Source: the human T2T-CHM13v2.0 reference genome, Homo sapiens
Length of the DNA: 64,000 nt
NCBI RefSeq assembly: GCF_009914755.1
Contig: NC_060934.1
Reading direction: 5' to 3' (one strand)
A program made the translations under genes and the position numbers. The number at the start of each line of letters is the position of its first letter. Position 1 is the stretch's first letter. A model generated the notes under the pieces. The model saw nothing but the letters and a program-made list of their open reading frames with translations. It did not search any database and was not told the origin of the DNA. Below are positions 15,475-58,046 of the stretch, in pieces.

Positions 15475-15514
<40 letters not shown>
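15468..15514. repeat. (TG)n microsatellite
   Basis: About 23 TG units with one CG interruption; abuts the outer end of inverted repeat 1. Confidence 0.95.
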
Positions 15515-15515
<1 letters not shown>

Positions 15516-18330: not shown

Positions 18331-20734
18331 AGGATTAAAAAAGAAAGTGGGATAAACACCTTTTGGAGCGATGGCTTCTCGTGGGCCAAAATAATGCAAA
18401 ATAAAGATTCTGTTTAGTTGTGTTGCATAGGGAAGAGGCCTTGCCATGAGCGAAAATACCTCCTTCTCTGAGCATCCCAGATAACTGGGCAAGAGCAGCT
18501 TTCAGGCTGCCAGGTCAGGCCTCCACCCTTCAGACCGGAGACCCAGGGGCCGCAGTGCCAGGATCCTCCCAGCTGGGCTCCCAGCAATACTTTCGGTGCC
18601 CACAGCTTCCAGGACAGGCCATTTCCTCCTGCCTAATGAGTCAGCTGCCAATCCCTGCCAGAGGCCTGGGGAATTGCCTGCGAAATAAGTCCCGACTAAT
18701 CCCTGTAGTTGGGAGTCAGGGATGCGGGCTCTCCAGGACAGAGCAGGCCTGGGGTTGTTGGGATGATGCCCCATCCTGTCTCCTGGCCTCTTTCCCACCA
18801 CTCAGGCTTCAGTGACTCCTGGTGTCCCTGCTGCCCTCCAGAAAGGCTGCCTGCTGAGCTGTATTCCCCACAACACCTCCCTTTGCACTCCCTAAACCTT
18901 TGTCTGCAGAAGGCAGGGAGCCAGTGGGAAGCACTCTACGTGGGGGCAGGGACCCCTGGACAGTGCCTGCCCTGCTGCTGGCTGGCTGTGTGACCTCGGT
19001 CATGTCCAGCCCTGTCTACAAGAACTGGGCTCTTCTCTAGGAGCCGCCTTGTAGCTCAGCCCTTTGGGATTCCAAAATCAACTCCCAAAGGGCCAAGAAG
19101 GAAAAGCCACCATTGCAGGTCTGCATTTATTTACCCAGAGGAGCCAATTGGCTCAGAAACGTCAGTCCCGTGAAGTCTTGGACTCCAGCTCAGATTTCTC
19201 CTAAAGCTCCCAGAAGCTTCCTCAGCCCTACAGAGGGGAGAATGGTGTGGGCCGAGTTCCTGAATCCCCAGGGTTCCCCCAGTCTGTCCTCAACACAGTG
19301 AGGCTCCTCACCCCCAGAAGCCCAGTCCTCCAGGAGGGGCACACAGCCCTCCCTGTCAGTCACAGTGTCCCATGTCCTAACCCGCCCTCCCTCCCATCAC
19401 GTAGGCCTCAGCTCACCCATGCTGTCCCTCACCATCTTCTCAGAAGCAGCCACCCTGCTGCCCACCTCAATGCTATAAGCCTTTTCTTGTGTCTTCATAG
19501 CACTTATCTTTATCTGAAACTTCTCTATTTGGTTGTGGTGTTGTGGTCTGTTTCCTCCAATGAGAAGGAAAGCTGCTCATCTGTTCACTGCCACAGCCTC
19601 AGCACCTGGCTCCCGAGGAATTTTGTAAATGAGTAGGTAAGTAAATGAGTGGATAGACATATGGAGGAAGCCCCTGAGGAGATGGCCGCCAGCGCAGCCT
19701 GCAGAGGCAGGGGTCAGGCCGGCCAGGCAGAGGCCAGGGCACCCCAGGAAACAGCTGGGCCTGTTGGAGCTGGGCCCTGGGCCTGCCACCTCCTGTTTGT
19801 CAGCCCCTGCGGGTGACGGCCAGGTCCCCTGAGCCCTAAGAGAATAGGGAAACTGGGTGGGGGCAGTCGGAGGAGGAAGGATGAGCCACATCTAACTTTG
19901 GGACAATGAGAAAGCGAAGGCCACAGGAAGAAGCAGAGGAGGACAGGAAAGGTGTGAAGGACCATCACTCATCAGCGGGACGGCTGTCCAGGTGGCTCTC
20001 CAGGCGGCGCATCCTTCCCGTTATCTCAGCGCCGTGACGCCAGGAACACCCCTCCCTCCGGGCCAGCCCTATGGCCCCCGCCGCTGGAAACCTCGGAGAT
20101 TGGGGAGCTCATTTAGTCCTAACCTCCATTGTGTCTGGGCCGGAAGGTGAGGCACAGAGAGGGCCAGGGACTTGCCCAAGGTCACAGAGCAGACGTGGCT
20201 CTCCTCACACCCCAGCCCATGGCAGGGATGTGCACATCAACACCCCGACCTCAGCCCACCACCCCTGCTCACTGCCAGCCCCGGCAGAACCCTGCTCAGG
20301 CACCAGCCACCTATTTCTAGGCAGCACTTTCTGTCCAGGGCCTGGTGTCTGAGCCACAAAGCCTAAAAATAAAAAAGACAGATTGTCCACTTCGGCTGTA
20401 AATACTGCCTAAAAAGACCCAGTGGGGAAAAAAAGAGGAGGAATGAAGGGGAAAAAATCCCAGAGCTGAGCATCCATCACAGGCAGACAGGCACTAGAAG
20501 GGAGGGTCTGTGGGCATAGCAAAGGGGCTCTCAGGTCTCCTGTCCCCAGCCCTCCCTCTCAGCTTGCTGAGCAAGCAGGCCCTGGCCACTGCCACCAGCC
20601 CCTTGGACTAGATGGAGATAGAGCAGGCCACGTGGGGGAGCTGGGCCAGCTTGGCTGCCCCCAGCTGTGTAACCATCACCAAATGGCAGTCTTTGCTTGG
20701 GACTCAGTTTTTTTCACCTGTACAATGGGGTTAT

Positions 20735-27010: not shown

Positions 27011-30000
27011 CACATAGGAGGAGGAAGCAGGACGACTTCTGGATTAGAGCCTCTGGGCTTACAGGAACCAACTCTGAGCTGAAGCCACTGGCCAGGCTCT
27101 TGAATATGATAAGAGAATCACAGCATGCGGCTCAGCACGTGGCTCAAGGCGGATGTCAGCCCCGCTGGACACCATGCTCCCCTCAGCCCTGCATCTTCTT
27201 TCAGGCTGTCCCTTCTGCCCGGACAACGCTCTCCCACTCCCCTCCCCTCCTCACCCCTAGTCCCTTCACCTAATTAACTCCTGGGCATTCCTCGGGGCTC
27301 TGTCTTAATGTCACCTCCTCTGAGAGCCCTCCTTGATGCTCCAGATTGGGTCAAGCATATTATGAACCATCACAAGGCCATGCATTCCTCCTGCAGAACC
27401 TGAGCTCAACAGAAATAAATCAAAACTTCACTCACCAGGGTATCCTCAGAGTTCATTGCCACATCTGCCTCATCATAATTTTTCTTAAATGAGTGAATGA
27501 ATGAATAGGTTTCAGGGGGCCTGTTCTGGGTCAGATACAGAAGGAGAATGTGTGTGATCCAGGGTCCACCTGGAGTTGCAGTGGATGGACCAGGAGGTAA
27601 CCAGTTGGCGATATGCTGGAGGGGACAGGGACTGTTACCCTTCCCAGCTGGCTCTTCCCTGGAGTGTACAGAGGGCTGGGGTGTGCCCACCCCTTTCCCC
27701 ACAGCTTCTGCACCCTAGGCCTGGCACCGTGGTGTGTGCTGTACCCTCTCCAAAATCCACCACCCTCCAGTGATAACAGACTGCAGTGTCGGGGATTCAA
27801 AGACACCTCTGGAAGTTTGTGCTCAGGTGGACACCCCTGCAAGGCCAGGGCCCTTAAAGGGGAGGCAGTGCTTTTGAACAGTGGGTCTAGGGGTGTAGAG
27901 TACACTTCCCTGCAGGGCTCTAGCCCTGAAAAGTCAGGGGAGCCAGAGGGCTTTGCTCCCAGCCACAATGTGGGCCTGGGAATCCATGGCTGCCCTGGGC
28001 CTCAGTCCCACGCTGCCTTCTCACAGGCCAGTGAGAGGACAGATGGGACCCCCTGCAACCTTCACAAGATGGCATTGAGTCAGAGGGACCTGAGCTTCCA
28101 CACTATTAGGGGAGGCAAAGACACATGAACTGGCAGCTACTTAGCACCATCCCGGGAGCCAACCTGTATAAGGAAGAAGGCTTCGGTCACCTCCTGGGTC
28201 CTGGCTGGGGGTTCCCCAGGGTTTGTTGACCTTGAGTGGCCGAGGCTTCTCAGATTCCCTCTTTCTGCTCACCTCATCTGCTGCATTTCCCTCAGAAGGC
28301 CAGGCCGGCCTTTCTCCTCTCCTCACTCTATCTCCTGCCTTCTTCCTTGGCAAGCTCTTCTACTCTTGACCTCACCACCTGCCATGCGGATGGCCTCAAA
28401 TCTCTTCACCTTCAGACCCCACATATTTGGCGGTAAGGAGACATCTCTACCTGGAGGTCCCTCAGCAACCTCCAACCCCACCTGTCCCCAGGTGACCACA
28501 TCCTCTCCTTGTCCAAAGTCTGCTAACTTCGTGCACCATCCATCTGGTCACCCAAAGCGGAACCCGAGGACCACTCTTGACTTTCCCACCTGCTCCCCAG
28601 CCCAGCGGCACAGTATGCATGTCTCCCCTGTTAGATGTCCGTCCTCATCTTGTCACCTCTGTGACCACACCCCTAGCGCGCGTCCTCATCACCTTCACTT
28701 GAATAAATGCCTTGGCCTCCCCCTAACTTAAGCCTTGCCCCTGTTCCCATTCCCTTTCACTCTGTATGACACATCAGAGCTGAAGGTCTTTCCAAAACAT
28801 CACCTTCTTTTGAAAACCCTTCGATAATAGACTCTTGACCAAGGATGAAGTCCAAGCTCCTTGGCATGTCCTATTTGGCAGCGCAGCCTCCTCCCATGGC
28901 GCCCTGACCCTGACTCCACACTCCAGCCATTCTTTCCTCTGAGTGGGCCACGCTTTCTCACCTACAGGGCTTTGCATTTGCTGTTCCCTTTCCTCTGAAT
29001 GCCTGGGCCTTGGGACTTCCTAATAATTCCCCAAACCCTCATGTGCTATCAGAGGTGAGTAAGTGTGGAGCAGTCATTACAAAATGCTTCCTTAGCAAGC
29101 GAATGTTGGGTGAGGGTGTGAAAGGGGCAGCACCACCAAGGAGTTAAGAACTCAGGCTCCAGCATCAGAGGGAGTCCAACAGGACACATCCTGGCCCTGC
29201 ACTTAGCTGCAGGTGGGAAAGTCAAGCGTGACCCTAGGGTTCTGCTTTGGGTGACTGGATGGATGAAGTTAGCAGACTCTAGACAAGAAGATGTGGTCAC
29301 TTTGGGACAGGTGACTTCTTTAAGCCTCCATTGCCTGACATGAGATGAGAGAGACCATATGCATCTTTTGGGGTGCTAGTGGGTTTAAATGAGGTGATCT
29401 AGGTCTTCTGGTGTCGGGTGTGATGCGGGTCCTCCCTTGGCCCCATCCTCTCTGGGGCTGGCCAGAGAAACACTGCTGTTGGCCATTGGCCTCCCTCTCC
29501 CCTCAGCCTGGCAGAGTCCTGCCCAAGCAGCTGGAGAGATCTGAATATCACTGCGGCCTTCCCAGGAGGACAGCAGGGAGGACCAACCGTCACGGCTGCC
29601 CCCCACAGAGGGGCAGCAAGGCCCTGGGAGGGCAGGTCCGTCAGAGGAGAGGCTCCGCATGCTGCCCCGGGTGGGCCACACAGCTTCCCAAGAACACAGA
29701 CAGCACAGCGCGTGAATGCAAAGGCCTCTTTGAGTTGTGCTGATGTGTCTGACAGTGACAGTCTTGGGGCTGGCAGCTGATGTGTCCTGACAACCCCCTT
29801 CGCTCCTGGAATCCTGAGAGTAAGGGGTTGAGCACGTGAGGGTTTGCCAACTCTGGAGGCCCCAAAGGACCAGTCAGCTGAGTGTTGGCTGGGCTGGGAT
29901 CCTCTGGGAGGCTCAGGCTCTGCTGTCCTCTCCCACTCCCCACCTTTGTCCCTGGGATGGTGGCTGTGCCAGACCAGCCCTCAGGCTCAGGGCTGGTCTC

Positions 30001-37299: not shown

Positions 37300-37860
37300 G
37301 CGTTCAGCAAATTCTTGAGCATGTATCGTTTGCTGGGCCTGGTGCAGAGAGTCTGGGATAGAAAGGTGAGGCTGCTGTAGCTGAGGGAGGAGAGAGGAGC
37401 TGTGTGGTGTGGGGCTGTGGACCTGTGGGAGCCCAGAGGGTCAGGAAAGTCTCCAGGAAAGGGGGCCGTTGGACTGGGTGTGGAAGACGGGGCACTTTGC
37501 CAGACAGAGGAGTGGAGGGAGTGAAGGTGGGTAGGGCATTTGCAGAGGCATAGGGGAGGGATGGACCAGGGCTGGTCAACCTGAGGCCATGTTAATGAGC
37601 TTGGTCTAGACACTTGAGTACAATGGGGAACCTCCAAGTGGTGTGGGGGATTGGCAGGTTTAATGTGGCAGCAGAGAGATCTGTGAGAAGCTGGTACCTT
37701 GATTCAGAGATGAAGGTCTGATAAAAGCCACAGCGGTGGTATGGAAATAAGTGAATGAACACAATTCTGAGCTAGCATTGGTGATTCACAGGCTGTAGAG
37801 GGGAAAGGATGGAGGAGTTGAAGATGACGCAGAGGCCTCTAGCTAAGGCAACCAAGTGGA
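37300..37860 (-). mobile_element. L2 LINE fragment
   Basis: ttcagcaaattcttgagcatgtatcg..gggtcaggaaagtctccagg..ggagttgaagatgacgcagagg. Confidence 0.6.
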
Positions 37861-38393
37861 AAGAATCTACTCCGCATTTTGCCAAAGAAAATGAATGAAA
37901 TCAGCCATGCTTCCGACAGGCCAAGCATACGCTGCCTCCCCCATCCAGGCCTCAGCATCTCTCCCGGTCACGCCGATACCTGAAAACAGTGTGCAGAGGG
38001 GACACGGGCCTCAGCCCTCCCATAACATCCCAGAAGGAAAAGTTTAATCTTTAGAAACATGATAGAATTGTCAAAAGCCCATACATTGAGAAGCGAGAGG
38101 CCTGATTTTATTTCTGCGGCAACAGTTTAAAAAAAAATCTTCCATTAAAAAACTAAATAACAAAAAGCATGAGTCCTGGGGAAGGTTGGAGAGGAGTAGA
38201 CAAAGAATAAGAGAAACCACTCACCCCTGAACCAAAGGATGCTTCAGCATCATGGACAGCAATACACCAAAAAAGGTGGCAAAACATTTCGTCATGCAGC
38301 ATCATGGGCTCACAGTAGAAGATAACTGTCAGCCACCTGCAGCTGTATGCAAAGTCGTATAATAGGCTGAGTCATTAAGAATTCGGTATTGTA

Positions 38394-38696
38394 GGCCAGG
38401 CACAGTGGTTCATGCCTGTAATCCCAACACTTTGGGAGGCCGAGATGGGTGGATCACCAGAGGTCAGGAGTTAGAAACCAGCCTGGCCAACATGGCAAAA
38501 GCCTGTCTCTACTAAAAATACAAAATTAGCCGGGAGTTGTGGTGCGTGCCTGTAATCCCAGCTACTCAGGAGGCTGAGGCAGGAGAATCGCTTAGAACCT
38601 GGGAGGTGGAGATTGCAGTAAGCCAAGATCACACCACTGCACTCCAGCCTGGGCAACAGAGGGAGACTCTGTCTCACAAAAAAAAAGGAAAAAAAA
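38394..38696 (+). mobile_element. Alu (AluSx/Sz-like)
   Basis: Full Alu; imperfect TSD aagaattcggtattgta / aagaattcaatattgta. Confidence 0.95.
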
Positions 38697-39409
38697 AAGA
38701 ATTCAATATTGTAGATGCTTTAGTATTTTCTGTCTATCCTCAGGAGAGGATGACCTTGGAGGCAGAGAGCTTACCACCATGCAGAGGGGAGAAACTAACT
38801 GCTGTGTTTCCATGCCACTCACCTCCCCAGTAAAGGTAAACAAGCTCCTCCAAGGTTCTAGGCTGGGACATGATGCTCAGGATCATCCAGCACTTTGAGA
38901 AAGAAAAGAGCAGTGGGAAGGAAGACTATGTGTGTTGGGATTGAGAGGCACAGGACAATTGGCACCTGAGTGTTATTGTGATGGGAACAGTCCTTCAGCC
39001 TCCCAGGAAGGGAGAGAACATGGACCTCCCACAGGCTCACTAGGCGAGGCTGTGATGACTGTATGGTCACTGTATGGCAAGGCCAAGGACCTTTGGCCTA
39101 CCTGGCAGTGAAGGGATGGACTCTCCAGTAGAGCCACCAACCTTGGAAGGGAGTGTGTACTTGATTAAGGCTAAGCAAGGAGGAATGGTGGTGAAGACTC
39201 CATACATCTAGCAAAGCCGTGGGGCCCAGCCTGCTGTTGCAGGACTCTTATAAGCCTGGGACATATGTTCAGCCCAAGGCTTGGGAGGAAATCTGGAAGG
39301 TTATTGGTATTATTTGGTGGTCACAGAAGCTGGATTTAATTTGGTTTAGAAAGGCTAAATAAATGTGGCACTAGGTATACCTTTAGCATTGTGGAATAAT
39401 TATACATCG

Positions 39410-40260
<851 letters not shown>

Positions 40261-40289
40261 GTGGGAGAGGGGCATTTTGGGAAGTTCAC

Positions 40290-40730
40290 TGTTTCCGCCT
40301 GGGTACCCTCCAAAGCAGGGCCTGAAGGAAGGAACTGTGTGCAGGCAGTTGATGTGGAAGGTGATCCCAGGTATCTAAGATGAGGGATGAGGGAGAGGAA
40401 AAGAGGGAGGAGAAAAGCCAATCCAAGGGTGCATTACTGAGATGTTCCCCATCATGGGAAACCAGGACTGTTCGCCATCATAGGGCCAGGTGATCCCTGT
40501 ACCTACCTCTGTGCAGGACATTGAATGCCTCTTGGAGTTGTCCACACCGCGACCCATGGGGGGATGCATTCATGCATCGGCTCCTGTCCCGCATTGACCA
40601 AGGGTTCCCCAGGGCGGTGGACTACCCCACGTGCGTCCAGACTGCACATGCCCATGCCATGTAGGCTCCTGCTGGGGTCCCATGCTGTGGCATCAGAGAA
40701 GCCCTAGCGCAGAAAGCAAACATCACACAT
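40290..40730 (-). mobile_element. Old ERVL LTR (LTR33/LTR41-like)
   Basis: ccaaagcagggcctgaaggaaggaactgtgtgcaggcagttgatgtggaaggtgatcccagg..aaagccaatccaagggtgcattactgag; same family as 26527-27010. Confidence 0.5.
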
Positions 40731-41028
40731 CCTGTCCTTGAGGTAAGATATTCTTGGCGGAAACTATCATGGACATGGAGGCTGCCATTTCTATGATGGT
40801 GGGAGTCAGAGACAGGCTGAGAGGCTGTTCAGCAGAGACTCTGAGACACTGCTTTGGCTGCAGAGCCTACTGAGGGTGAGGAAGGAGGGTGGCTGTGCAG
40901 ACAGAAATGAGTTAGGAGATGTGAAGATGGAAGGTTTGGGCTGTATTTTGGAGGTTGGGCCAACAGGACTGGCTGATAAAGCATCTGTGGAAGGGGATGA
41001 GGGGGAAGTGGAATCAAAATGGCCGACA

Positions 41029-41866
<838 letters not shown>

Positions 41867-41873
41867 GATTTGT

Positions 41874-42213
<340 letters not shown>

Positions 42214-43690
42214 TCACTGTGTTAGATGGCATGGGAGTTGTTGGGGAACCAGGAGGTTTGGATGTGGCGAAGAAAGGAAAGGGGAGTCAAGGATGACACC
42301 TGAGTTTTTCAGCATAAGGAAGTGGGTGACAGTGCCGCTTACTGAGATGGGGAGTAGGTTTTGGTAGCAGGATCAAAAGTTCTGTTTTGGCTCCATTAGG
42401 CTTGAGAGAAATGTGAGACACCATTGCTGCTAAAAATGGCACGGCCTGATGAAATCTAAGCCCAAATGTCCATGCAGGGCCTTGAAAAAGCCACAGGGTA
42501 ATGCCTACTGGTTATGCAAGGAAAGAGAACTAGAAAGATTCGGAGGCCCTTGTCCAGAGCATACCAAATGTCTGTGCATGTGCAAGAAGGGAATTCTTCC
42601 TGCACCAGAGCAAGTGCCGGCTCATGCCAGGGCTGTCCCCAGGCATTCCAGAAATAACAGTCGGTGCCAGGGGGTCACAATGAATGCTAGGCAAGTTAAC
42701 TTGATACTAGGGATGTAGCAGTGCATGCCAGAAGACAGACAATAGAAGCTGAGAGGAGTAACAAAGGAGTAGCTTTGGCATGTTGGGGAGGATAGTGAAT
42801 GCAGGGAGTGACTTTGTATGTCAGGGGAGTGACCTGGCATGTGAGGGAACCAGAGGGGTCAAGGAATAAGCCTGGGACAGGCCATGTGCCATTGGACTAG
42901 CCATGGATGCAGCAGGAGTGAGATCCCAGCTGCCTGAGCCAAGCAGGGGTCTGTCAACACCTGGCTCTGAGAGCCCAGGGCTGCTGCTTTCCTGCCTCAC
43001 CCCTGTGTCCTCCCTTTTCAGAAGAAGCTCGAATTGCAAAGACCCTTCCTGTCTCTGGAACCATTTCCATGTGCCTGAGCAAGACAGGCCCCTGCTCAGA
43101 GGGGATCAGCTCTCCCAGGAACCAACTACTGGAGTGAGAGGAGGTTCAAGGGTCCTGGAAAAAGTTCCAACTTTCCTCCTCCCCTTAACACACCTGGGAT
43201 GGGGCCCTCACTTGTTCTCACCTACTTTCAGGAACCAGGAAGAGGAGAAATGTAAAAGGGGGATCAGATGGCCAAAAAACCACCATCAGGCCCTGAGGAC
43301 TTTCTGAGCACCAACTGTGGGTCTGGGCCTGACCTGGGAGCTTGAGAGGCCAGTACGTGCCAGAGTGGAAGCAGCAGATCATGGGGCAAGGAGGGAGCAG
43401 GGAGGGGCAGGACAGTATGTGCCAGCAGCCAGCAGCTTCGGGGTTATTTCACACCTGCCTTTTCCTTTTCTCTATTATGTTAGGTAGGCTAACAGGAACT
43501 CTCCTTGTGCCCATGTTACAGATGAGAACAGTAAAGCTCAGGAAAGGGAAGTAACCAACCCAAGGTGACTGGCTCTTGACTCCCCCAGTCCAGCATTCTT
43601 CTCTTTATGGCTTGCTGCCTCTGGAGAAGAATCAGACGTGATCCCTGGCCTTGGTTCCCTCCTCAAGCCCCTCAAATTTTGCAAAGTCTT

Positions 43691-44071
43691 TGTTATGGTT
43701 TGGCTCTGTGTCCCCACCCAAAACTCATCTTGAATGGTAATCCCCATAATCCCCATATGTCAAGGGAGGGACCAGGTGGGAGGTGGTTGGATCATGGGCA
43801 TGGTTTCCCCCATGCAGTTCTCATGATAGTGAGTGAGTTCCCATGAGATCTGAGAGTTTCATAATGTGGTTTTCCCTGCTCTTTCCCTGCTCTTGCTCAC
43901 TCTGTCTTGCCTGCCACCATGTGAGACGTGCCTCTTCCCCTTCTGCCATGATTGTTTGTTTCCTGAGGCCTCCCTAGCCACGTAGAACTGTGAGTCAATT
44001 AAACCTCTTTTCTTTATACATTACCCAGTCTTGGGTATGTCTTTATAGCAGTGTGAAAAAGGACTAATATA
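43691..44071 (+). mobile_element. THE1D-like solo LTR
   Basis: tgttatggtttggctctgtgtccccaccc..ggactaatata; perfect 5-bp TSD gtctt. Confidence 0.9.
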
Positions 44072-44082
44072 GTCTTCTACTA

Positions 44083-44212
44083 GAGTACTTCTCAAGCTCT
44101 AAAATGCAGATTCTGATTCAGTAGTCTGGGGTGAGGCTTGAGGGTCACATTTCCAGCAAGCTCCCAGCTGACGTGGATGCTTCTGATCCAGATGACACTC
44201 TGAGTAGCAGAG
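44083..44212. mobile_element. MER5-like hAT DNA transposon fragment
   Basis: aaaatgcagattctgattcagtagtctggggtgaggc..tttccagcaagctcccagctgac..actctgagtagca. Confidence 0.7.
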
Positions 44213-44701
44213 TTCTACTCCTTCTCACGAGTCCTAATCCATCCATTCAGCCTCACCTAGCTGGGGACCCAAAGCTTGGTGGGGAAGTTTAGAGGTGGCC
44301 AGGTCCACCATACCAGGCCAGTAGCTCAGATTCCTGACCTGGTCCCCACCTACCCTGATGAGGGCCACACATTGTCTCCGAGGCTGCTCTGACCCTGTAT
44401 TTACCTACCTCCATTAAGAGCCAATTCTCAAATCTTCTTTAATTTTAAAGCAAGGAAAAAGATCTTCTGAATACAAGATGACGTAATTCTAGTGTTTAAT
44501 CTGCCATGATCTTATTCAGTCATGTTATTCACCAATTCATTCACCACTCACTGAAAAGACATTGACTCAGTCTTCTGGGTACTTTCCCTCCCCGAGCCTT
44601 GGTGGTTTCCCACCAGTACAATAAGGGAGTGAGTCTGGATTAGTGATCTCCACCCTGGCTGCATATTGAAATTACTGAAATTACCTAGGGAGCTAATTTG
44701 C

Positions 44702-45913
44702 TTTATTGAGATATAATTTACAGACAATAAGAGTCACCAACTTTAAATGTACCATTTGATCAGTTGTGCCAAATATATATAGTCATGTACCACCACCACG
44801 ATCAACATATAGAACATTTCCATCACCACAAACCACACCCTCTGGCAGTCCACACCCACTTCAACACCAGCCTCTGACAACCACTGGTTAGCTTTTTGAC
44901 ATTATGGTTTCAATGTTTCTGAAATTTCCTAAAAATGGAATCATACAAAATGTAGTCTTTTGTGTCTGGTTTCTTTAACTTAGCATAATGCATTCTAAAT
45001 TCACCCATGCTGTGTGCATGGGTAGTTTATTCCTTTCTACTGCTGACTAGTATTCCATTGTGTGGATGCGCCACAATTTGTTTATCCATTCACCAGTTGA
45101 GGAATATCTGGGGTTGCCCATTAGGCACAAGACTGTTACGAACATTCAAGTAAATTATTTGCGTGAACATGAACATTTGTTTGCATTTCTCTTGCATAAA
45201 TACCTAGGGGTGAGATTGCTAGGTCACGTTGGGTATATGCTTAATTTTATGAGTAACTACCAAATGGTCTTTCCAAAGTAACTGCACCATCTTATACCCC
45301 CATCAGCAATAAATGAGCATTTCACAGCCTTGCCAACACTCGATATTGCCAGACTTCATCAATTTCACCATTCTGGTGAGTGTATAGAATAATATTGTAA
45401 TTTAGTTTGAATCTCCCTGATGATTAATGATGTTGAGCATCTTTTCATGCTTGAGCATCTTTTCATGAGCATCATAGCACTGTCACTAATACTTTATCTT
45501 CCATTTTTGTATCCTTGCTGAAGAGTCTATTTAAATCTTTTGCTCGCATTTTATTCAACTGTTTGCCATCTTATTATTCAGTTGTAAGAATTTATACATC
45601 CTGGTTACAAGTCCTTTATAAATATCTTATTATACAAATATTTTTTACAATCTATAGCTTGCCTTTTTAACTTCTTATTAAATTTTGAAGAACAAAAGGT
45701 ATGCTTTTGTTTAACTTTGGTTAAGTCCACCTTATTTAAGTTTTTTCTTTTATGGTTTGTGCTTTTTTTAAAATTAGAGATTTAGGAAATCTCTGATGAA
45801 CCGAAGATCACACTAACTTTCTCCTATGTTTTGTCATATAAGTTTAGAGATTTAGCTCCCACATTTAGCTCTGTGATCCACCTTAAGTGTGTGTGTGTGT
45901 GTGTGTGTGTGTT

Positions 45914-45951
<38 letters not shown>

Positions 45952-47420
45952 TGTGAGGTAAGGGTTTATGTTTTGGCCCATGAATATCTAATTACTTTAG
46001 TATTATTTGTTGAAAAGGTTATTCTCTCCCCATTGGCTTACTTTACCTTTGTCAAAATCAACTGACCATCTATTTTAGGTCTATTTCTGAACTATCTATT
46101 GTGTTCCACTGAGCTAATTATCTATAATTGTGCCAATGCCTCAGGGTCTTCTTTATTGTAGCTTAATATTAAGTCTTGAAATCTGATACGGTAATATCTC
46201 CAAGTGATCTGTTTTCTTTCTGAAAATTGTTTGGGCTATTAGAAATCCTTTGTATTTCCATGTGAATTTTAGAATGGGCTTGTCAATTTCTTTAAATATC
46301 CTAGTGGGATTTTGATAGCAAACACAATGACTCTTTTAACACTACTGCATCTTCTGATTCATGAACATAGACTGTCTCTCTGTTTATTTAGATCATTTTT
46401 TAAATTACTGTAAGCAATAATTTATAGTTTTAATGTACAGGAATTGCACATATTTTATCACATTTATTCCAAAGTATTTCATACTTTTCATGCTATTGTA
46501 AATAGTATTTTTAAATTTCAATTTCCAATTATTTATTTCTGGTATACAGAAATACAATCAGTTTTTGTATATTAACCTTGAATCTTGTTACTGTGCTAAC
46601 CCCACTAATCAATTCTAGTAGATTTTTTGTCGATCATTCAGGATTTTCTGCATAGACAGATGATTATGTAATCTGCAAGAAAAGATAGTTTTTTCTTTCC
46701 AATCTGTAAGCCTGCTATTGTTTCTTATTTTTCACTTTTTGCTTGCTTACACTGACTAGGACCTCTCTTACACTGGTCAACAGAAATGATGAGAATAAAA
46801 AGCCTTGCCTTGTTTTTAATCTTAGGGGGAAACATACACTCTTTCACCATTAAGTGTGACATTAGCTCTCAATTTATTATATATGCCCGTTCTCAGGGTG
46901 TGAGAAAGTTCTACTCCTGCTTTGCTGAGATTGTTTTTGGTTTTTCAGTCTTTTAAAATTATGAATGAATATGCAAATTTTCTCTAATGCCTTTTCTATA
47001 TCTATTAAGATAATCATGTTTCCTTCTCATGGTCTATTAAGCTGGTGAAATATACTGATTTTTGAATGCTAAAATAACCTTGCATTCTTGAGATGAACTC
47101 CACTTAGTCATGATATGTTAATTTTTTCATATATTGCCAGATGCAGTTCACTAATACTTTGTTAAGGTATTTTGCTTTTTGTTGATGTGGGATATCAGAC
47201 TGTAACTTTCCTTTCTTATAATGTCTTTGGTTTAGGTATCAGGATAATGCTTGCCTCATAAAAGAAATTAAGTATTCCCTCCTCTTGTGTTTTCTGGAAG
47301 AGTTTCTGTAGAATTGGTATTATTTTGTCTTTAAATGTTTGATATAATTAACCAGGTAAGCCATCTGGGCCTGGCATTTTCTCTATAGGAATGTTTTTTA
47401 ACTACAGAATTGATTTTAAA
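44702..47420 (-). mobile_element. Old L1 (L1ME/L1MD-like), 3' part
   Basis: ctttattgagatataatttaca..agaacatttccatcacc (L1 3' end, reversed), followed by reversed ORF2 text. Confidence 0.9.
45887..45950. repeat. (TG)n microsatellite split by a duplicated ttaag
   Basis: ttaag(tg)n ttaag(tg)n. Confidence 0.9.
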
Positions 47421-47444
47421 AACAAACAAACAAATACGAACTGG

Positions 47445-49995
47445 GCTCTAAAATCAGGAAGAAGAACAATGTTGTCTGCATCCACTACTTCTTTTCAACA
47501 TTGTACTAGAGATTCTAGCCAGAGAAACTAGGGAGGAAAAAGAAATAAAAGGCATCCATGTTGGAAGGAAGATGTGAAACTATCTCTATTTGCAGATGAC
47601 ATGATCCTGTAGGCAGAATATTCTAAAGAATATGCACACACGCACACATACACACAAACTACTGGAGCTAGTAAATGACTAGGAAAAATGTGGGATACAA
47701 AATCCAAATATAGAAATCGATTGTATTTCTGTAGTCTAGCAAACAATTATCAGAATATAAAATTTAAAAATAATTCCACCTACAATACCATCAAGAAGAA
47801 TAAAATACTTAGAAATAAATGCAACCAAAAAGTTAAAGATTTGTACACTAAAAATGACAGAACATTATTAAAAGCAATGAAAGGGAACCTAAATAAATGG
47901 AAAGATATCCCATGCTCCTGGATTGGAACACTTAATATTACTAGGATAGCAGTACTCCTGGAGTTGATCCTCAGTGAAATTTCTATCAAAATTCAAATTG
48001 CCTTTTTTTTTTGTGGAAATGGACAAGCTGATCCTAAAATTCATATGAAAAATGCAAGGGACTCAAAACAGTCAAGGCAGAGTAGATAAAGAAGAACAAG
48101 CTTGAAGAAAGCTTAAAAATCACACTATCTGATTTTAAAACTTATTACAAAGCCACAGTAATCAAGACAGTGTGGTACTGATATAAAGACAGACATATAG
48201 AACAACAGAATATAATTGAGGGTCTAGAAATAAACCCATACATCTATGGTCAATTGATTTTCAACAAGGGTACAAATATCATTCAATGGGGGTTGAAAGA
48301 CTGAGTTTTTTAACAAAAGGTGCTGAAACAACTGGATATCCACATGCAAAAGAATGGATGAATCCTATCTCATGCCATACATAAAAATTGACTTAAAATA
48401 CATCAAAGACCAAAATATAAAGGTGAAAATTATAAAACTCTTAAAAGGAAGCATAGGTTTGCATTTTCTTGACCTTGGATTAGGTGTTGGTTTCTTAGAT
48501 GTGACACCAAAAGCACAAACAACCTAAGAAAAAATAGAAAAATTGTATTTCATAAAAATAATAAATGTGCATAAAAAGACACTATCAAGAAAGTGCAAAG
48601 ACAATCCACAGAACGGGAGGAAGTATTCGCAAATTATATGTCTGATAAGGACCTAGTATCCAGAATATATAAAGAACTATTACAACTCAACAACAAAAAG
48701 ACAACTCAATCTTATAAATGAGCAAAAGATTTGAATAGACATTTCTCCAAAGATATATAAATGGCCAACAAGCATATGAAAAGATGCTTAACATCATTAG
48801 CCATTAGGGAAATGCAAATCAAAATCACAATGAGATACCACTTCACACCTACTAAGATGGCTACAAAAACAAATACAAAAAACAGAAATAACAAGATGTG
48901 GAGAAACTGGAACACTCATTCATTGCTAGTGAGAGTGTAAAACAGTGCTGCTGCTTTGGAAAACAGTTTGGTAGTTCTTCAAAAAGTTAAACATGGGTTA
49001 CTATATGACCCAGAAATTTTACTTCAAGGTATATGTAACTGTGATGGTTAATACTGAGTGTCAACTTGAATGGATTGAGGGAAACAAAATATTAATCCTG
49101 GGTGTGTCTGTGTGGGTGTTGCCAAAAGAGATTAACATTTGAGTCAGTGGGCTGGGGAAGGCAGATCTACCCTTCATCTGGTGGGCACAATTTAATCCGC
49201 TTCCAACAAATATAAAGCAGGCAGAAAAGTGTGGAAAAGGGAGACGGCCCTGCCTCCAGGTCTACATCTTTCTCCCATGCTTGATGCTTCCTGCCCTCAA
49301 ACATCAGACTCCAAGTTCTTCAGTTTTTGGATTCAGACTGGCTTTCCTTGCTTTTCAGCTTGCAGACAGCCTATTGTGGCACCTTGTGATCATGTAAGCC
49401 AATACTTAATAAACATATATATATCCTATTAGTTCTGTCCTTCTAAGAGAACTCTGACTAATACAATAACCAAGAGAAGTAAAAAGCATATGCTTACACA
49501 AATACTTGTTAAGGAATGTTAGTAGCAGCATTATTCATAATAGTTGAAAAGGCAAAACAACCTAAATGTCCATCAACTAATGACTGAATAAACAAAATGT
49601 GGCATGTCCATTCAATGGAATATTAGTCACAAACAAGAATGAAGTACTGATACATGCTGCAACATGGATGAATCTTGAAAAGTTATTCTCAGTGAAAGAA
49701 GCCAGACACAAAAGGTCATATATTATATGATTCCGTTTATGTGGAATGTTCAGAATCTGCCATAGAGACAGAAAGTAGATTAGTGATATCAGAGGCTGGG
49801 ATAGGAGAGTATGGATAGTGATTGCTAACAGGTATGGGGATTCTTTTTAGGTTGATGAAAATGTTGGAACTAGATGGAGGTGATGGTTGCACAACCTTGT
49901 GAATATGTTGAAAACCATTGAAATGTACACCTTAAGATGGTGAATTTTATGTTACATAAAATTTTATTATATAAATTATCTCAGTAAAAAAATAA
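47445..49995 (+). mobile_element. L1MB-like element inserted in the older L1
   Basis: ORF2 remnant (LNKWKDIPCSWIG in ORF 47688..48089); 3'UTR gtgaaagaagccagacacaaaagg..gatggttgcacaac. Confidence 0.9.
49040..49465 (+). mobile_element. MLT2A1-like (HERV-L) solo LTR
   Basis: tgtgatggttaatactgagtgtcaacttg..ctgactaataca; imperfect TSD gtaac/ataac. Confidence 0.88.
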
Positions 49996-49996
49996 A

Positions 49997-51712
49997 GGGC
50001 TATTCGGAATTTGATTTCTTCTAATGTAAACCTTGATCATTTGTGCATTTCAAGTATTTTGTCTATTTCATCTAAGTTGTAAAATTTATTGGGCAAAGTT
50101 TGTTTATAATATTCCTGTATTATTCTTTTATTAACTATAGAACTCATTGTGATAGTACCTTTTTCATTCTTGATTTTGGTAATTTATGTCTCCTCTCTTT
50201 CTCCCTTATTTTTTCCTGACTAGTATGGCTAGGGGTTTGTAAATTTTATTCATATTTGCAAAGAACCAGCTTTTGCTTTCACTAAGTCAGTCCCTCATTC
50301 TCTCTCTCTCTTTCTCTCTCTCTCTCTGCCTCTTTCCCTCCCTCCGTCTCACTCTCCCTCCTATCCCACTCTCCTTCCCACCTCTATTTTTAAAACTTTC
50401 TTCTCTTATTTTTATTATTTTTCTCCCGTTTACTTTTGATTTAATTTTCTTTTCTTTCTCTAGTTTCTTGAAGTAAAACTTACATCATTGATTTAAGATC
50501 TTTTTTCTTTTTCTAATACAACCATTTAATGCTCTACATTTCCTTCTAAACACTGTTTGAGATGTATCCTGCAAATTTTGATATGCTTTGCTTTCATTTT
50601 CTTCCAGTGCAAAATATCTTGTGATTTCCCTTGTAATTTCTTCTTTGACTCCTTGTTTATTTAGGAGTACATCACTTAATTACCAAATATTTGGAGATTT
50701 TCCAGACATGTTTCTGTCATTGACTTAAAATCTATTTCTGTCATGTTCAAAGAACATACTTTGTATGATTTCAGCCTTCTTGGTTTTGTTTTATGGTCCA
50801 GAATATGCTTGCTCTATCTTGGTAAATGTTCCATGAGCACTCGAAAAGAATGGGCATTCTGCTGTTGTTAGGTGTTCTATAAAGGTCAATTAGGTCAAGT
50901 TGATTGATAGTGTTGTTAAATTTTTCTCTATTCTTACTGATTTTTTGTGTACATGTTCTAGCAACTACTGAGAGAAGAATGTTGACATTTCCAACTTTAA
51001 CTGTAAATCTATTTTTTATCTCTATCAGTTTTTATTTCATATATTTTGAAGCACTAATGTTCAATGCATACACACTTGGGATTGCAATGTCCTTTTGATT
51101 AATTGATCCATTTATCATTATGAAATGTCTCTCTTTATGCCTGGTAATATTCCTTGTTCTGAAGTCTGCTTTGTATGATATAACCACACTAGCGTTCTTT
51201 AGATTAAGGCTTACGTGGTATATGTTTGTCCATCTTTTTACTTTTAACCTATCCTCATCCTCAAACGTAAAATAGGCTTCTTATAGCAACACATAGTTTG
51301 GTCTTGCCTTTTTAATCCTACCTTAACATGTCTGCCTTTTAATTGGAGTGTTTAGATGACCTTAAATTTTATGTAATTATTGATATCTCTAAATTTAAAC
51401 TTACATCAATGCTATTTTAATTTTTTTGCCATGTGGTTTTTTGTTTTTTGGTTGTAATTTCCTGTATGAGCTTTTGCTTTTTTGTTTTATTTTTTCTTAG
51501 TTGCTCTAGGATTTACATTATACATGTTAAACTTATCATAGTCTACCTTCAAGTAATATTATAGCACTTCACTTATATTACTTAAGAATCTTACAATAGT
51601 ATACTTCCATTTCTCCTCTCTCAGGCTTTGTGTATTGTTGCCATACATGTTATTTCTGCATATCTTTTAAACCCCAAATATGTTATTATTATTTTATCTT
51701 GAAATAGTCAAT
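49997..51712 (-). mobile_element. Old L1, continuation of 44702-47420
   Basis: Reversed ORF2 5' text: ttgcaaagaaccagcttttg, ccagaatatg..tcttggtaaatgttcc. Confidence 0.85.
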
Positions 51713-51855
51713 TATAAGCCCAAGAAGGAATATCAGGAACCAGATTTACCCTCCCATCCAACACAATAAATTTTTTAAAACATACACAAAATATAAAAAA
51801 CAACACTTTGAAAGACATTGGACACCAGGCACTTAAGAAGTATTATCTCTGGGAA
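51265..51855 (+). repeat. Inverted repeat 2, left arm (~590 bp)
   Basis: Reverse complement of 52318-52902; about 20 substitutions and 2 small indels by eye. Confidence 0.96.
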
Positions 51856-51990
51856 ACAGGAAATAAAGCAGGCGAGCCCTCCCTTTGCTGCAGCTTATTT
51901 CCCTGAAAGAGTTTTCAGGCTTTGATGCAGGGAGGAAGAATCCAGGCAGAACCTAGTGGACTCCCTAAGTTCAGAAGACAAAGCTAACAT
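51713..51990 (+). mobile_element. L1 5'-region fragment (L1M/L1MD 5' end-like), opposite strand to the adjacent L1
   Basis: ccagatttaccctccc..aagacattggacaccaggca..gagttttcaggc..ggactccctaagtt. Confidence 0.6.
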
Positions 51991-51991
51991 C

Positions 51992-52132
51992 TTAATCTTT
52001 AGAAACATGATAGAATTGTCAAAAGTCCATACATTGAGAAGTGAGAGGCCTGATTTTATTACTGCAGCAACAGTTAAAAAAAAGAAAACCTTCCATTAAA
52101 AACTAAATAACAAAAAGCATGAGTCCTGGGGA
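51992..52132 (+). repeat. Dispersed direct copy of 38044-38182
   Basis: ttaatctttagaaacatgatagaattgtcaaaag..ctaaataacaaaaagcatgagtcctgggga present at both sites. Confidence 0.97.
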
Positions 52133-52317
52133 CTTACATCATTACCAATACTAGATGTTATCTTTTTACTGATTTGTCTACTCTGAAAGATAAGTCAAAT
52201 CATCTCATTTTCTGTCATCAAATTCCCATTTTGATTTCTTCTTTGACCCAAAGGTTATTTTGACATATATTATTTTTCAAATATTTGGAGATTTTTCATA
52301 TTTCTGTTATTGAAACC

Positions 52318-52902
52318 TTCCCCAGAGATAATACTCCTTAAGTGCCTGGTGTCCAATGTCTTTCAAAGTGTTGTTTTTTATATTTTGTGTATGTTTTTAA
52401 AAATTTATTGTGTTGGATGGGAGGGTAAATCTGGTTCCTGATACTCTTTCTTGGGCCTATAATTGACTATTTCAAGATAAAATAATAATAACATATTTGG
52501 GGTTTAAAAGATATGCAGAAATAACATGTATGGCAAAAATACACAAAGGCCGAGAGAGGAGAAATGGAAGTATACTGTTGTAAGATTCTTACAATATAAG
52601 TGAAGTGCTGTAATATTGCTTGAAGGTAGACTGTGATAAGTTTAACATGTATAATGTAAATCCTAGAGCAACTAAGAAAAAATAAAACAAAAAAGCAAAA
52701 GCTCATACAGGAAATTACAACCAAAAAAAACTGCTTGGCAAAAAAATTAAAATAGCATTGATGTAAGTTTAAATTTAGAGATATCAATAATTACATAAAA
52801 TTTAAGGTCATCTAAACACTCCAGTTAAAAGGCAGACATGTTAAGGTAGGATTAAAAAGGCAAGACCAAACTATGTGTTGCTCTAAGAAGCCTATTTTAT
52901 GT
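52318..52902 (-). repeat. Inverted repeat 2, right arm
   Basis: Reverse complement of 51265-51855. Confidence 0.96.
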
Positions 52903-53784
52903 AAGGAAAGGGGCATTATGATGTTGGCAGGAATATGAAACTGTGTGATTTTTTAGGAGTTATTTGGAGGTATATATCAAAATTTAAAAGGCCCTTGCCC
53001 TCCGATCCAGCAGTTTCACTTTCAGGAATCTATCTTCCAGTATGGTTGTAGAAATTAATAGGTATGTAGAGACTCATAGCTGTATTATATAGTAAAAAAT
53101 AGAAAATATTATCGCTGTCCGTCAGTAAGGGATTGGGTAAATAAAGCACATAGAGGGTCAAAATATCTAATATCCTGAACAAAATTACCAAAAAAAACCC
53201 CAAACTTACTTCTTTAGCCTTTGTTCCTGCCAATTTTCTTTCTCTAGGCTCTGGATACCTTGCCCCATGTGTACCTTTATTTTTAGAGGGACCAATGGAG
53301 GAGCTGGTTGTCTTTTAACTTCTATCCATTCTAGGTATTTCCCCCTTCATAATACTTGGGCCAGAAACAGGGAGTTGGCCTCTGACTAAAGCTCCAGTTT
53401 AGGCCTTAAACAGAAGCACTTGAATGTCTCTTGTCTCATCTGTCCCCTGTAAAGAAGGAGGCCCCAACCACCAATGCTCTCACCTTCACACAGCATTGCC
53501 TCTGAGGCAGCCTGCAGCTCACAGCAGAACTGAGAGATCTAGGTTTATCAGTGCCTGGCATGGAAGACAAGCTCCTTGTGGGTGAGCTGTTTGCTTGCTG
53601 TGGTACCTTCTCTTCAGCAACAACTTAAAAGCCAGAGTTGTCACCAGTAAAGAGCCTGAAGGCCTTCTCTCCATTGCCTCCTGTTTCTGTGACATAAAAT
53701 CACCTGGGAACTTTACAGACACTGCCTCAGCTAAGTGATTAAGGCCAATATCTACAGTCATAAATCATGCTGATAGTATGGACC

Positions 53785-54672: not shown

Positions 54673-54877
54673 TTGACTTCTGTGCACCCACAGGCTGAAC
54701 ACCACGTGGAAGCTGCCAAGGCTTGGGGCTTCCACCCTCTGAAGCCACAGCCTGAGCTCTATGTTGGCCCCTTTCAGCCACAGCTGGAGTGACTGAGACA
54801 TGGGGCACCAAGTCCCTAGACTGCACACAGCATGGGGATCTGTGTTGACTGCCCTGCTGGATTTCAAACTTGCATGG
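54673..54877. mobile_element. Orphan THE1-internal fragments (one inverted, one direct)
   Basis: 54673-54838 is the reverse complement of 56822-56984; 54845-54877 matches 57404-57436 (32/33). Confidence 0.9.
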
Positions 54878-54942
54878 TGCAAAACTCTGTGTACTACTTA
54901 ATTTTTCTGTAAAGTTAAAATGTTCTAAAAAATAAAATTTAT

Positions 54943-55791: not shown

Positions 55792-58046
55792 TGATATGGT
55801 TTGGCTGTGTCCCCACCCAAATCTCAACTTTAATTGTATCTCCCAGAATTCCCACGTGTTGTGGGAGGGACCCAGTGAGAGGTAATTGAATCATGGGGGC
55901 CAGCCTTTCCTGTGCTATTCTTGTGGTAGTGAATAAGTCTCACAAGGTCTGATGGTTTTATCTGGGGTTTCCGCTTTTGCTTCTTCCTCATTTTCTCTTG
56001 CCACCACTATGTAAGAAGTGACTTTTGCCTTCCGCATGATTCTGAGGCCTCCCCAGCCATGTGGAACTGTAAGTCCAATCAAACCTCTTTTTTTCCCAGT
56101 TTCAGGTATATCTTTATCAGCCACATGAAAATAGACTAATACAATAAATTGGTACCAGTAGAGTGGGACATTGCCGAAAAGATACCCGAAAATGTGGAAG
56201 TGACTTTGGAACTGGGTAACAGGCAGCGGTTCAAACAGTTTGGAGGGCTCAGAAGAAGACAGGAAAATGTGGGAAAGTTTGGAACCTCCTAGAAACTTGT
56301 TGAATGGCTTTGACAAATATGCTGATAGTGATATGAACAGTAAAGTCCAGGCTGAGGTAGTCTCAGATGGAGATGAGAAACTTGGAGAGTGCAGCAAAGG
56401 TGACTCTTGTTATGTTTTAGCAAAAAGACTGGCAGGATTTTGTCTCTGCCCTAGAGATTTGTGGAACTTTGAACTTGAGAGAGATGATTTAGGGTATCTG
56501 GCAGAAGAAATTTCTAAACAGCAAAGTGTTCAAAAGGTGACTTGGGTGCTGTTAAAAGCATCCCATTTTAAAAGAGAAACAGAGCATAAAAGTTCAGAAA
56601 ATTTGCAGCCTGATGATGCAGTCGAAAAGAAAAACCCATTTTCTTAGGAGAAATTCAAGCCGGCTACAGAAATTTGCATAAGTAGCAAGGAGCCTAATGT
56701 TAATCCCCAAGACAATGGGGAAAATGTCTCCAGGGCATGTCAGGGACCTTCATGGCAGCCCCTCCCATCACAGGCCCAGAGGCCCAGAAGGAAAAAGTGG
56801 TTTCGTGGGCCAGGCCCAGGGTCCCCATGCTGTGTGCAGCCTAGGGACTTGGTGCTCTATGTCCCAGTCACTCCAGCCATGGCTGAAAGGGGCCAACGTG
56901 GAGCTCAGGCTGTGGCTCCAGAGGGTGGAAGCCCCAAGCGTTGGCTTCCATGTGGTGTTGAGCCTGTGGGTGCACAGAAGTCAAGAATTGGGGTTTGGGA
57001 ACCTCCGCCTAGATTTCAGATGTATGGAAACACCTGGATGCCCAGGCAAAAGTTCACGGTGGGGTGGGGCCCTCATGGCGAACGTCTGCTAGGGCAGTGC
57101 AGAAGGGAAATGTGGGGTCAGAACACCCATATAGAGTCCCTACTAGGGCACTGCCTAGTGGAGCTGTGAGAATAGGGCCACCATCCTCCAGACCCCAGAA
57201 TGGCAGATCCACAGACAGCTTGCACCATGTACCTGGAAAAGCCACAGACACTCAGTGCCAGCCTGTGAAAGCAGGCAGGAGAGAGGCACCCTGCAAAGCC
57301 ACAAGGGTGGAACTGCCCAAGACCATGGAAATCCACGTCTGGCATCAGTGTGACCTGGATGTGAGACATAGAGTCAAAGGGGGTCACTCTGGAGCTTTAA
57401 AATTTGACTGCCCTGTTGGATTTCAAACTTGCATGGGGCCTATAATGCCTTTGATTTGGCCAACTTCTCCCATTTGGAATGGCTGCATTTACCCAATACC
57501 TGTACCCCCATTGTATCTAGGAAGTAACTAGCTTGCTTTTTATTTTACAGGCTTATAAGCAGAAGGGACTTGCCTTGTCTCAAATGAGACTTTGGACTGT
57601 GGACTTTTGGGTTAATGCTAAAATGAGTTAAAACTCTGGGGGACTGTTGGGAAGGCATGATTGATTTTGAAATGTGAGGACATGAGATTTGGAGGGGCCA
57701 GGGTGGAATGATATGGTTTGGCTGTGTCCTCACCCAAATCTCAACTTGAATTGTATCTTCCAGAATTCCCACGTGTTATGGGAGGGACACAGGGGGAGGT
57801 AATTGAATCATGTGGGCCAGTCTTTGTTGTGCTAGTTTCATCATAGTGAGTAAGTTTCATGAAATCTGATGGGTTTATCAGCAGCTTCTGCTTTTGCTTC
57901 TTCCTCATTTTCTCCTGCTGCTGCCATGTAAGAAGTCTCTTTTTTCCTCCTGCCATGATCCTGAGGCCTCCTCAGCCATGTGGAACTCTGAGTCCAATGA
58001 AACCTCTTTTTGTTCCCACTTTTGGGTGTGTCTTTATCAGCAGCAT
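55792..58046 (+). mobile_element. THE1A MaLR provirus: 5' LTR 55792-56143, internal 56144-57708, 3' LTR 57709-~58046 (3'-truncated)
   Basis: Both LTRs start tgatatggtttggctgtgtcc; interior starts aaattggtaccagtagagtggg; MaLR ORF remnant EGSEEDRKMWESLE. Confidence 0.95.

What the first reader, a model, noticed from the sequence alone, without database searches (positions are those of the whole stretch)
51992..52132. 140 bp of unique DNA from 14 kb upstream captured in the spacer of inverted repeat 2
Seen: direct copy of 38044-38182 (~94-95%), with no poly(A) tail or TSD. The 38-kb copy keeps CpGs (aagcgaga, ctgcggca) that read tg/ca here, pointing to 38 kb as the donor. Divergence is similar to that between the arms, consistent with one event. 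The next 12 nt, acttacatcatt (52132-52143, overlapping by one base), also occur at 50478-50489, a possible further switch. The donor is AT-rich and motif-bearing (CCATTAA, TAAATAAC). Inference: a multi-jump template-switch event that duplicated a possible regulatory fragment and records physical proximity of the two sites.
Basis: partly seen in the sequence, partly recalled or inferred. Interest (0 to 1): 0.7.

Follow-up and report, generated by a model that had tools for sequence, protein, structure and literature searches.

The report
Old DNA-repair scar with copied patch
A 141-base piece of otherwise unique human DNA has a second copy 14 kb away, inside a small patch of flipped and duplicated old LINE-1 sequence; this is likely a neutral scar of error-prone DNA repair in an ape ancestor, a known kind of rearrangement.

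Summary
The copy is real: 51992-52132 matches 38044-38182 at 132 of 142 columns, with exactly two hits in the genome. The donor's end reappears reversed at the right-arm junction (52314-52325 = reverse complement of 38176-38187), joined to the arm by a 5-nt microhomology. The 181 bases between (52133-52313) are not a further jump to 50478: they are native old LINE-1 that has been flipped. Turned back, they run on into 52906+ (21.2 bits; 0 of 1000 controls reach it) and restore a continuous 144-bp donor copy. Reconstruction: a templated insertion likely replaced about 2-3 kb of old LINE-1; a reverse-strand template switch then likely flipped 186 bp and wrote the 579-bp inverted arm. Pooled divergence is 3.3%, about great-ape age. 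Direction 38 kb to 52 kb is supported by the junctions, not by CpG decay. One episode or two cannot be decided without ape orthologues. Nothing supports a regulatory role or special 3D contact. This is a new instance of known complex deletion/inverted-duplication variants; interest is low.

The parts
38023..38029 (+). 7-nt stretch upstream of the donor, identical to 51985-51991 at the left junction
   Evidence: about 0.0015 by chance in a 30-nt stretch
38044..38187 (+). donor: single-copy AT-rich DNA; 38044-38182 copied forward, 38176-38187 found reversed at the right-arm junction
50209..51355 (-). old LINE-1 ORF2 5' part in which the left arm is embedded
   Evidence: tblastn with a young LINE-1 ORF2, E 7e-43
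51268..51853 (+). left arm (original position): LINE-1 ORF2 start, inter-ORF region and the head-to-head join to a LINE-1 5' piece
   Evidence: paralog coverage continues across both ends
51720..51985 (+). old LINE-1 5' piece, cut off where the copy begins; its last 14 bases match donor 38031-38044 at 11 of 14
51985..51991 (+). 7-nt junction insert, most simply templated from 38023-38029
51992..52132 (+). the 141-bp copy of 38044-38182
52133..52313 (-). piece X: native old LINE-1 mosaic, flipped; its reverse complement is colinear with 52906 onward
52314..52325 (-). 12 nt of donor end (38176-38187) in reverse; last 5 nt shared with the arm as microhomology
52321..52899 (-). right arm: inverted copy of 51268-51853, 18 substitutions in 579 aligned bases
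52899..52905 (+). 7-nt overlap, reverse complement of 52133-52139: return point of the reverse copy
52906..53124 (+). very old LINE-1 3' remnant, the native right flank

Best explanation
The 141-bp copy, a flipped 186-bp piece and a 579-bp inverted duplication sit together at five sharp junctions, and are likely the neutral scar of one linked episode of replicative template-switch repair (FoSTeS/MMBIR-like) in the germline of a probably great-ape-age ancestor. Shown: the pieces, their orientation and their junctions. Inferred order: (1) the strand left the old LINE-1 at about 51985, guided by an 11-of-14 match to 38031-38044, copied the donor to 38187, and rejoined LINE-1 at what is now 52313, replacing roughly 2-3 kb; (2) synthesis left 5 nt short of the donor end, entered the opposite strand at the 52905 position, ran back through piece X and 12 nt of donor end, skipped 277 nt between two CTGGG words, ran back through the left arm to about 51268 and returned at about 52900 (four-point order 3-1-4-2 with one internal skip). 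An equivalent one-pass version has two break ends both using the same donor end.
For: Two genome hits only. LINE-1 paralogs break exactly at the copy's edges: 25 of 25 listed alignments end at or before 51990, and 11 of 22 end exactly at 52313 and all 11 continue with TTT, unlike the window. The 12-nt reversed donor end occurs only twice in the window; the 7 bases beyond the shared word have p about 7e-5 at a fixed place; 24 of 28 paralog columns show that the base at 52320 is not the arm's. Flipping 52133-52318 adds 5 donor-matching bases. Flipped X joined to 52906+ scores 21.2 bits across the join against 11.4 for the present order; 0 of 500 shuffles and 0 of 500 natural controls reach it; 14 of 19 single references give z of 2 or more (the references are related). 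52133-52139 is the reverse complement of 52899-52905. In one chr7 paralog the two LINE-1 parts flanking the copy lie 3.0 kb apart, 0.3 kb of it an Alu. Ages agree. For linkage: the step-2 exit lies 5 nt from the step-1 junction (inference), and PMC4617611 found no intermediates for such complex sites (passage).
Against: No outgroup genome could be read, so every ancestral state is reconstructed from paralogs. Two of five junctions (52132|52133 and donor end to X) show no microhomology, which fits end-joining as well. Step 2 as drawn needs the step-1 product as a template, which a separate later event supplies just as well. The age test is weak (copy 1.6-9.2%, arms 1.9-4.9%). The size and timing of the deletion rest on one paralog, and X is a mosaic that may not belong to the same element as the 5' piece. 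The 7-nt left insert has two other possible sources (a 7-of-8 match to 52133-52140, or decayed LINE-1). 5 of 19 references gave z under 2. Neutrality was not tested.
Confidence: 0.55

Rival explanations
1. Two independent events: an older deletion with templated insertion, then, possibly millions of years later, a local four-point template switch that flipped X and wrote the right arm.
For: The reconstructed intermediate is a clean, simple allele with a continuous donor copy; the reversed donor end then needs no second visit to 38 kb; the copy is nominally more diverged than the arms (4.3% against 3.1%).
Against: The difference is not significant (p about 0.6); it needs two rare events in the same kilobase with a switch point 5 nt from the older junction (inference).
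Confidence: 0.3
2. End-joining repair (non-homologous or polymerase-theta type) patched a break with DNA or cDNA fragments, as in class 2 templated sequence insertions, without processive fork switching.
For: No poly(A) or perfect target-site duplication; two blunt junctions; a short templated insert at the left junction; class 2 features as in PMC5110952 (passages).
Against: Copy-number gain of two local templates, 7-nt overlaps at both ends of the flipped piece and a microhomology skip fit continuous reverse synthesis; the donor is 14 kb away in cis, not a random distant locus.
Confidence: 0.1
3. The 141-mer was native at 52 kb and was copied to 38 kb.
For: The 38-kb copy is AT-rich (32% GC in the copy) between flanks of 53% and 45% GC; CpG decay does not fix direction.
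Against: At 52 kb both ends coincide with breaks in LINE-1 homology; 38 kb holds all donor-derived pieces contiguously and in order, with the 14 skipped bases.
Confidence: 0.03
4. LINE-1-mediated insertion (transduction or class 1 templated insertion) of a transcript from 38 kb.
For: A 7-of-8 near-repeat flanks the copy; the surroundings are LINE-1.
Against: No poly(A) tract or sense signal; the right half of the near-repeat belongs to the flipped native piece; the local LINE-1s are 65-75% identical to their paralogs, far older than the 3-4% event.
Confidence: 0.02

Closest known systems
Complex deletions with duplicated inserts ('Ins with MultiDup and Del') and inverted duplications in 1000 Genomes phase 3 (PMC4617611; passages)
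   Same: Deletion with templated insert; inverted duplication under 1 kb within 5 kb of its source; template switching proposed; 41 of the 1,651 complex sites had a template over 10 kb away, as here.
   Different: Those are polymorphic in living humans; this one is about 3% diverged and presumably fixed, and combines insertion, flip and inverted duplication.
Four-point short-range template switch (PMC7954356; passages)
   Same: Step 2 maps to switch order 3-1-4-2, an inter-strand switch with reverse synthesis and inverted repeats at both ends.
   Different: Reverse tract about 770 nt with an internal skip; their gold-standard tracts have median 12 and maximum 128 nt; their model has no distant template.
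Local n-jumps and templated insertions in cancer genomes (PMC7025897; passages); FoSTeS/MMBIR complex insertions (PMC5120786; passages)
   Same: Copy-and-paste of local templates, mixed inverted and direct junctions, microhomology at some junctions and blunt ends at others.
   Different: Germline, ancient, sub-kilobase, no gene affected.
Class 2 templated sequence insertion polymorphisms (PMC5110952; passages)
   Same: Intact donor, no poly(A), no perfect target-site duplication, deletion at the site.
   Different: Donor is nearby in cis, accompanied by inversion and inverted duplication; polymorphism and RNA origin not shown.

Membership tests
Complex template-switch structural variant (FoSTeS/MMBIR-like, local n-jump) | Extra copies of genomic templates with donors left intact | tested here: met
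   Donor and left arm both intact, each with one extra copy
Complex template-switch structural variant (FoSTeS/MMBIR-like, local n-jump) | Clustered direct and inverted junctions on one chromosome | tested here: met
   Five junctions within 51985-52905
Complex template-switch structural variant (FoSTeS/MMBIR-like, local n-jump) | Microhomology or short templated inserts at junctions | tested here: met
   5-nt microhomology at the arm, 11-of-14 match plus 7-nt insert at the left junction, imperfect 4 nt at the right; two junctions blunt
Complex template-switch structural variant (FoSTeS/MMBIR-like, local n-jump) | Formed in a single event, no intermediate alleles | not testable with these tools
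   No primate genomes held; divergence test inconclusive
Complex template-switch structural variant (FoSTeS/MMBIR-like, local n-jump) | Excess new point mutations in the copied tract | tested here: inconclusive
   5 right-derived, 1 left-derived, 13 unresolved of 19 arm differences, p 0.22
Class 1 templated insertion / LINE-1 transduction | Poly(A) tail with upstream signal | tested here: not met
Class 1 templated insertion / LINE-1 transduction | Target-site duplication of 5 bp or more | tested here: inconclusive
   7-of-8 near-repeat with a 5-nt exact core, but its right half is flipped native sequence
Class 2 templated sequence insertion polymorphism | No poly(A); end-joining-like junctions; donor intact | tested here: met
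Class 2 templated sequence insertion polymorphism | Polymorphic in humans | tested here: inconclusive
   No row found for this place in two supplements (inversion tables, second file cut); 4% divergence argues for fixation
Interspersed repeat family | Many dispersed copies | tested here: not met
   2 matches from 2 candidates; no Rfam match in 37500-53500
Duplicated enhancer | Constraint or enhancer chromatin at donor and copy | not testable with these tools
   Motif counts unremarkable; hub annotation lists no element there

The most novel reading that the evidence does not exclude
A fixed fossil of one repair episode in which two nascent strands both copied up to the same end of a donor 14 kb away (38182 and 38187), marking a stalled fork or shared displacement loop, so that insertion, flip and inverted duplication arose at once with no intermediate allele.
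Probability: 0.3. Interest if true: 0.4.

Novelty: new member of a known kind. Interest (0 to 1): 0.22.

Why it matters
It is a base-resolved ancient example of a complex rearrangement with a template over 10 kb away, a minority class (41 of 1,651 complex sites in PMC4617611). Ape genomes could settle here whether such complexity comes from one episode or from repeated events, and the structure would serve as a clade marker. It does not change a mechanism or touch a gene, and no function is indicated.

Tried and rejected
Multicopy repeat: rejected. A second donor for piece X: none; the best non-self hit is 86% over 77 nt among 40 scored of 126 candidates, and its first 93 nt have no other hit. 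Switch to 50478: rejected; X and 50624-50723 are only 73% alike, old LINE-1 paralogy, and the first 10 of the 12 bases also occur at 51399 and reversed at 52759. A separate later micro-inversion of X through the 7-nt inverted word alone: dropped once the overlap with 52899-52905 tied X to the right flank; micro-inversions in PMC8755829 are 17-33 nt (passages). Twin-priming origin of the head-to-head LINE-1 join: considered, not resolved. Gene conversion between the arms: no sign (longest identical run 99 nt, p 0.45). Special hairpin at 52110-52340: z -1.24. Protein-level test of the X join: no useful signal. Published calls for this place: none found in supplements of PMC10150506, PMC12350169 (file cut), PMC11794170; the supplements of PMC12058530 and PMC8755829 were unreadable scans and may bear on ape distribution. 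Text searches: UNC5B + inverted duplication + chr10 gave 0 papers; LINC02622 gave 1 unrelated listing. A paper on 1000 Genomes deletion breakpoints that I recalled was not held and is not used.

Full report
Observation. 51992-52132 is a direct copy of 38044-38182: 132 matches, 6 substitutions and two gaps. The whole-genome search returns these two places only, as does a 690-bp query around the donor; the tool skips common words, so this supports rarity without proving it. There is no poly(A) and no Rfam match. The copy lies between inverted arms of about 590 bp at 95%.

Setting. The left arm sits in old LINE-1: ORF2 on the minus strand at 51355-50209, joined head to head to a LINE-1 5' piece at 51720-51985, which in a chr7 paralog lies upstream of ORF1. 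Paralog coverage runs across both ends of the left arm, so the right arm is the new copy.

Left junction. Of 25 paralog alignments that reach 51970, none passes 51990 and none continues into the 141-mer. 51972-51985 matches donor 38031-38044 at 11 of 14, a level reached by 7 positions in the window. 51985-51991 equals 38023-38029, 14 nt upstream of the copy start (about 0.0015 by chance). These 7 bases could also come from decayed LINE-1 or relate to 52133-52140, which they match at 7 of 8 with one more base.

The donor end appears twice. 52314-52325 is the exact reverse complement of 38176-38187, 5 nt beyond where the forward copy stops. Eleven of 22 paralog alignments of the LINE-1 piece to its left end exactly at 52313 and all continue with TTT. 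The last five bases, CTGGG, are shared with left arm 51849-51853; the apparent arm mismatch at 52320 is donor-derived, since 24 of 28 paralog columns carry the left-arm base.

Piece X (52133-52313) is native and flipped. It has no close copy in the genome. Its first 7 bases are the reverse complement of 52899-52905. I built a profile from 15 of the top 18 non-self hits (39 in all; three whose match ended early were left out; fetched). Reverse-complemented 52133-52222 joined to 52906+ scores 21.2 bits across the join, against 11.4 for the flank alone, the antisense join or the present order; 0 of 500 dinucleotide shuffles and 0 of 500 natural controls reach it (maximum 14.5). With single references, 14 of 19 give z of 2 or more and 5 do not (they are related). 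Flipping back also makes the donor copy continuous to 38187. The 12-mer shared with 50478 lies inside this native stretch and needs no switch; 1.9% of old-LINE-1 positions have such a match within 2 kb and 5.5% somewhere in the window.

Reconstruction (inferred). Earlier state: LINE-1 5' piece, 7-nt insert, donor 38044-38187, reversed X, right flank. In one chr7 paralog the LINE-1 parts on either side of the copy are 3.0 kb apart including one Alu, so about 2-3 kb were probably lost, if loss and insertion coincided. Then a reverse-strand switch: out 5 nt before the donor end, in at the 52905 position, back through X and 12 nt of donor, a 277-nt skip between CTGGG words, back through the arm, return near 52900. 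This is four-point order 3-1-4-2 in the scheme of PMC7954356 (passages; the assignment is mine). A one-pass version in which two break ends both copy the same donor end gives the same sequence. I favour a linked episode (0.55) over two separate events (0.3) because a switch point lies 5 nt from the older junction; this is inference.

Direction and age. CpG decay (2 of 2 in the copy) does not fix direction. The junctions do: both ends coincide with LINE-1 breaks at 52 kb, and 38 kb holds all pieces contiguously. Divergence is 6/138 for the copy and 18/579 for the trimmed arms (Fisher p about 0.6); pooled 24/722, 3.3% (2.1-4.9%). Against recalled values (human-chimpanzee about 1.2%, orangutan about 3%, macaque about 6%) this suggests a great-ape or hominoid ancestor. 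No gene conversion (p 0.45) and no significant excess of new changes in the right arm (5 against 1, 13 unresolved, p 0.22) were seen.

Function. The two motifs are not notable: 6 against 8.5 and 6 against 2.6 expected. The hub's annotation places no element on donor or copy. Conservation and chromatin could not be tested. A template 14 kb away in cis needs no special contact (inference).

Comparison. PMC4617611 (passages) describes complex deletions with duplicated inserts, 41 of 1,651 with templates over 10 kb away, and inverted duplications under 1 kb within 5 kb of their source as the commonest inversion class. PMC7025897 (passages) and PMC5120786 (passages) describe local n-jumps and iterative template switches. 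PMC5110952 (passages) defines class 1 and 2 templated insertions; class 1 fails here on poly(A). This place was not found in the supplements searched or by text search; two supplements were unreadable, so absence from print is not established.

Verdict. A real, well-resolved, probably neutral complex rearrangement scar; a new member of a known kind; interest 0.22.

Noticed in passing
window 15499-16484 and 17352-18331: A second inverted repeat with a 609-nt core at 99% and outer parts at about 87%, suggesting conversion or recurrent inversion. It is a listed rare inversion polymorphism: chr10:71936140-71937699 in Table S1 of PMC10150506 and chr10-71935600-INV-2638, 1 heterozygote of 65, in PMC12350169.
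   Followed up: partly
window 54673-54838 and 56822-56984: A third inverted pair, 166 nt at 91%, about 2 kb apart, with a 36-nt direct match 54845-54880 / 57404-57439 at 94% next to it; possibly another old complex rearrangement.
   Followed up: no
window 28479-28593 and 29209-29313: Inverted pair of about 110 nt at 82%, just downstream of the annotated enhancer 27270-28220.
   Followed up: no
window 51432-51443 / 52728-52735: Three substitutions and a 5-nt gap within 12 bases of the arm alignment; looks like one multi-nucleotide change.
   Followed up: no
window 51719-51720: Head-to-head join of a minus-strand LINE-1 (inter-ORF onward) and a plus-strand LINE-1 5' piece, as twin priming would give; the join is copied into the right arm.
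   Followed up: partly
L016 (chr12) and L017 (chr7), L007 (chr17) and L008 (chr7): Pairs of old LINE-1 paralog loci with nearly identical sequence, probably segmental duplications.
   Followed up: no
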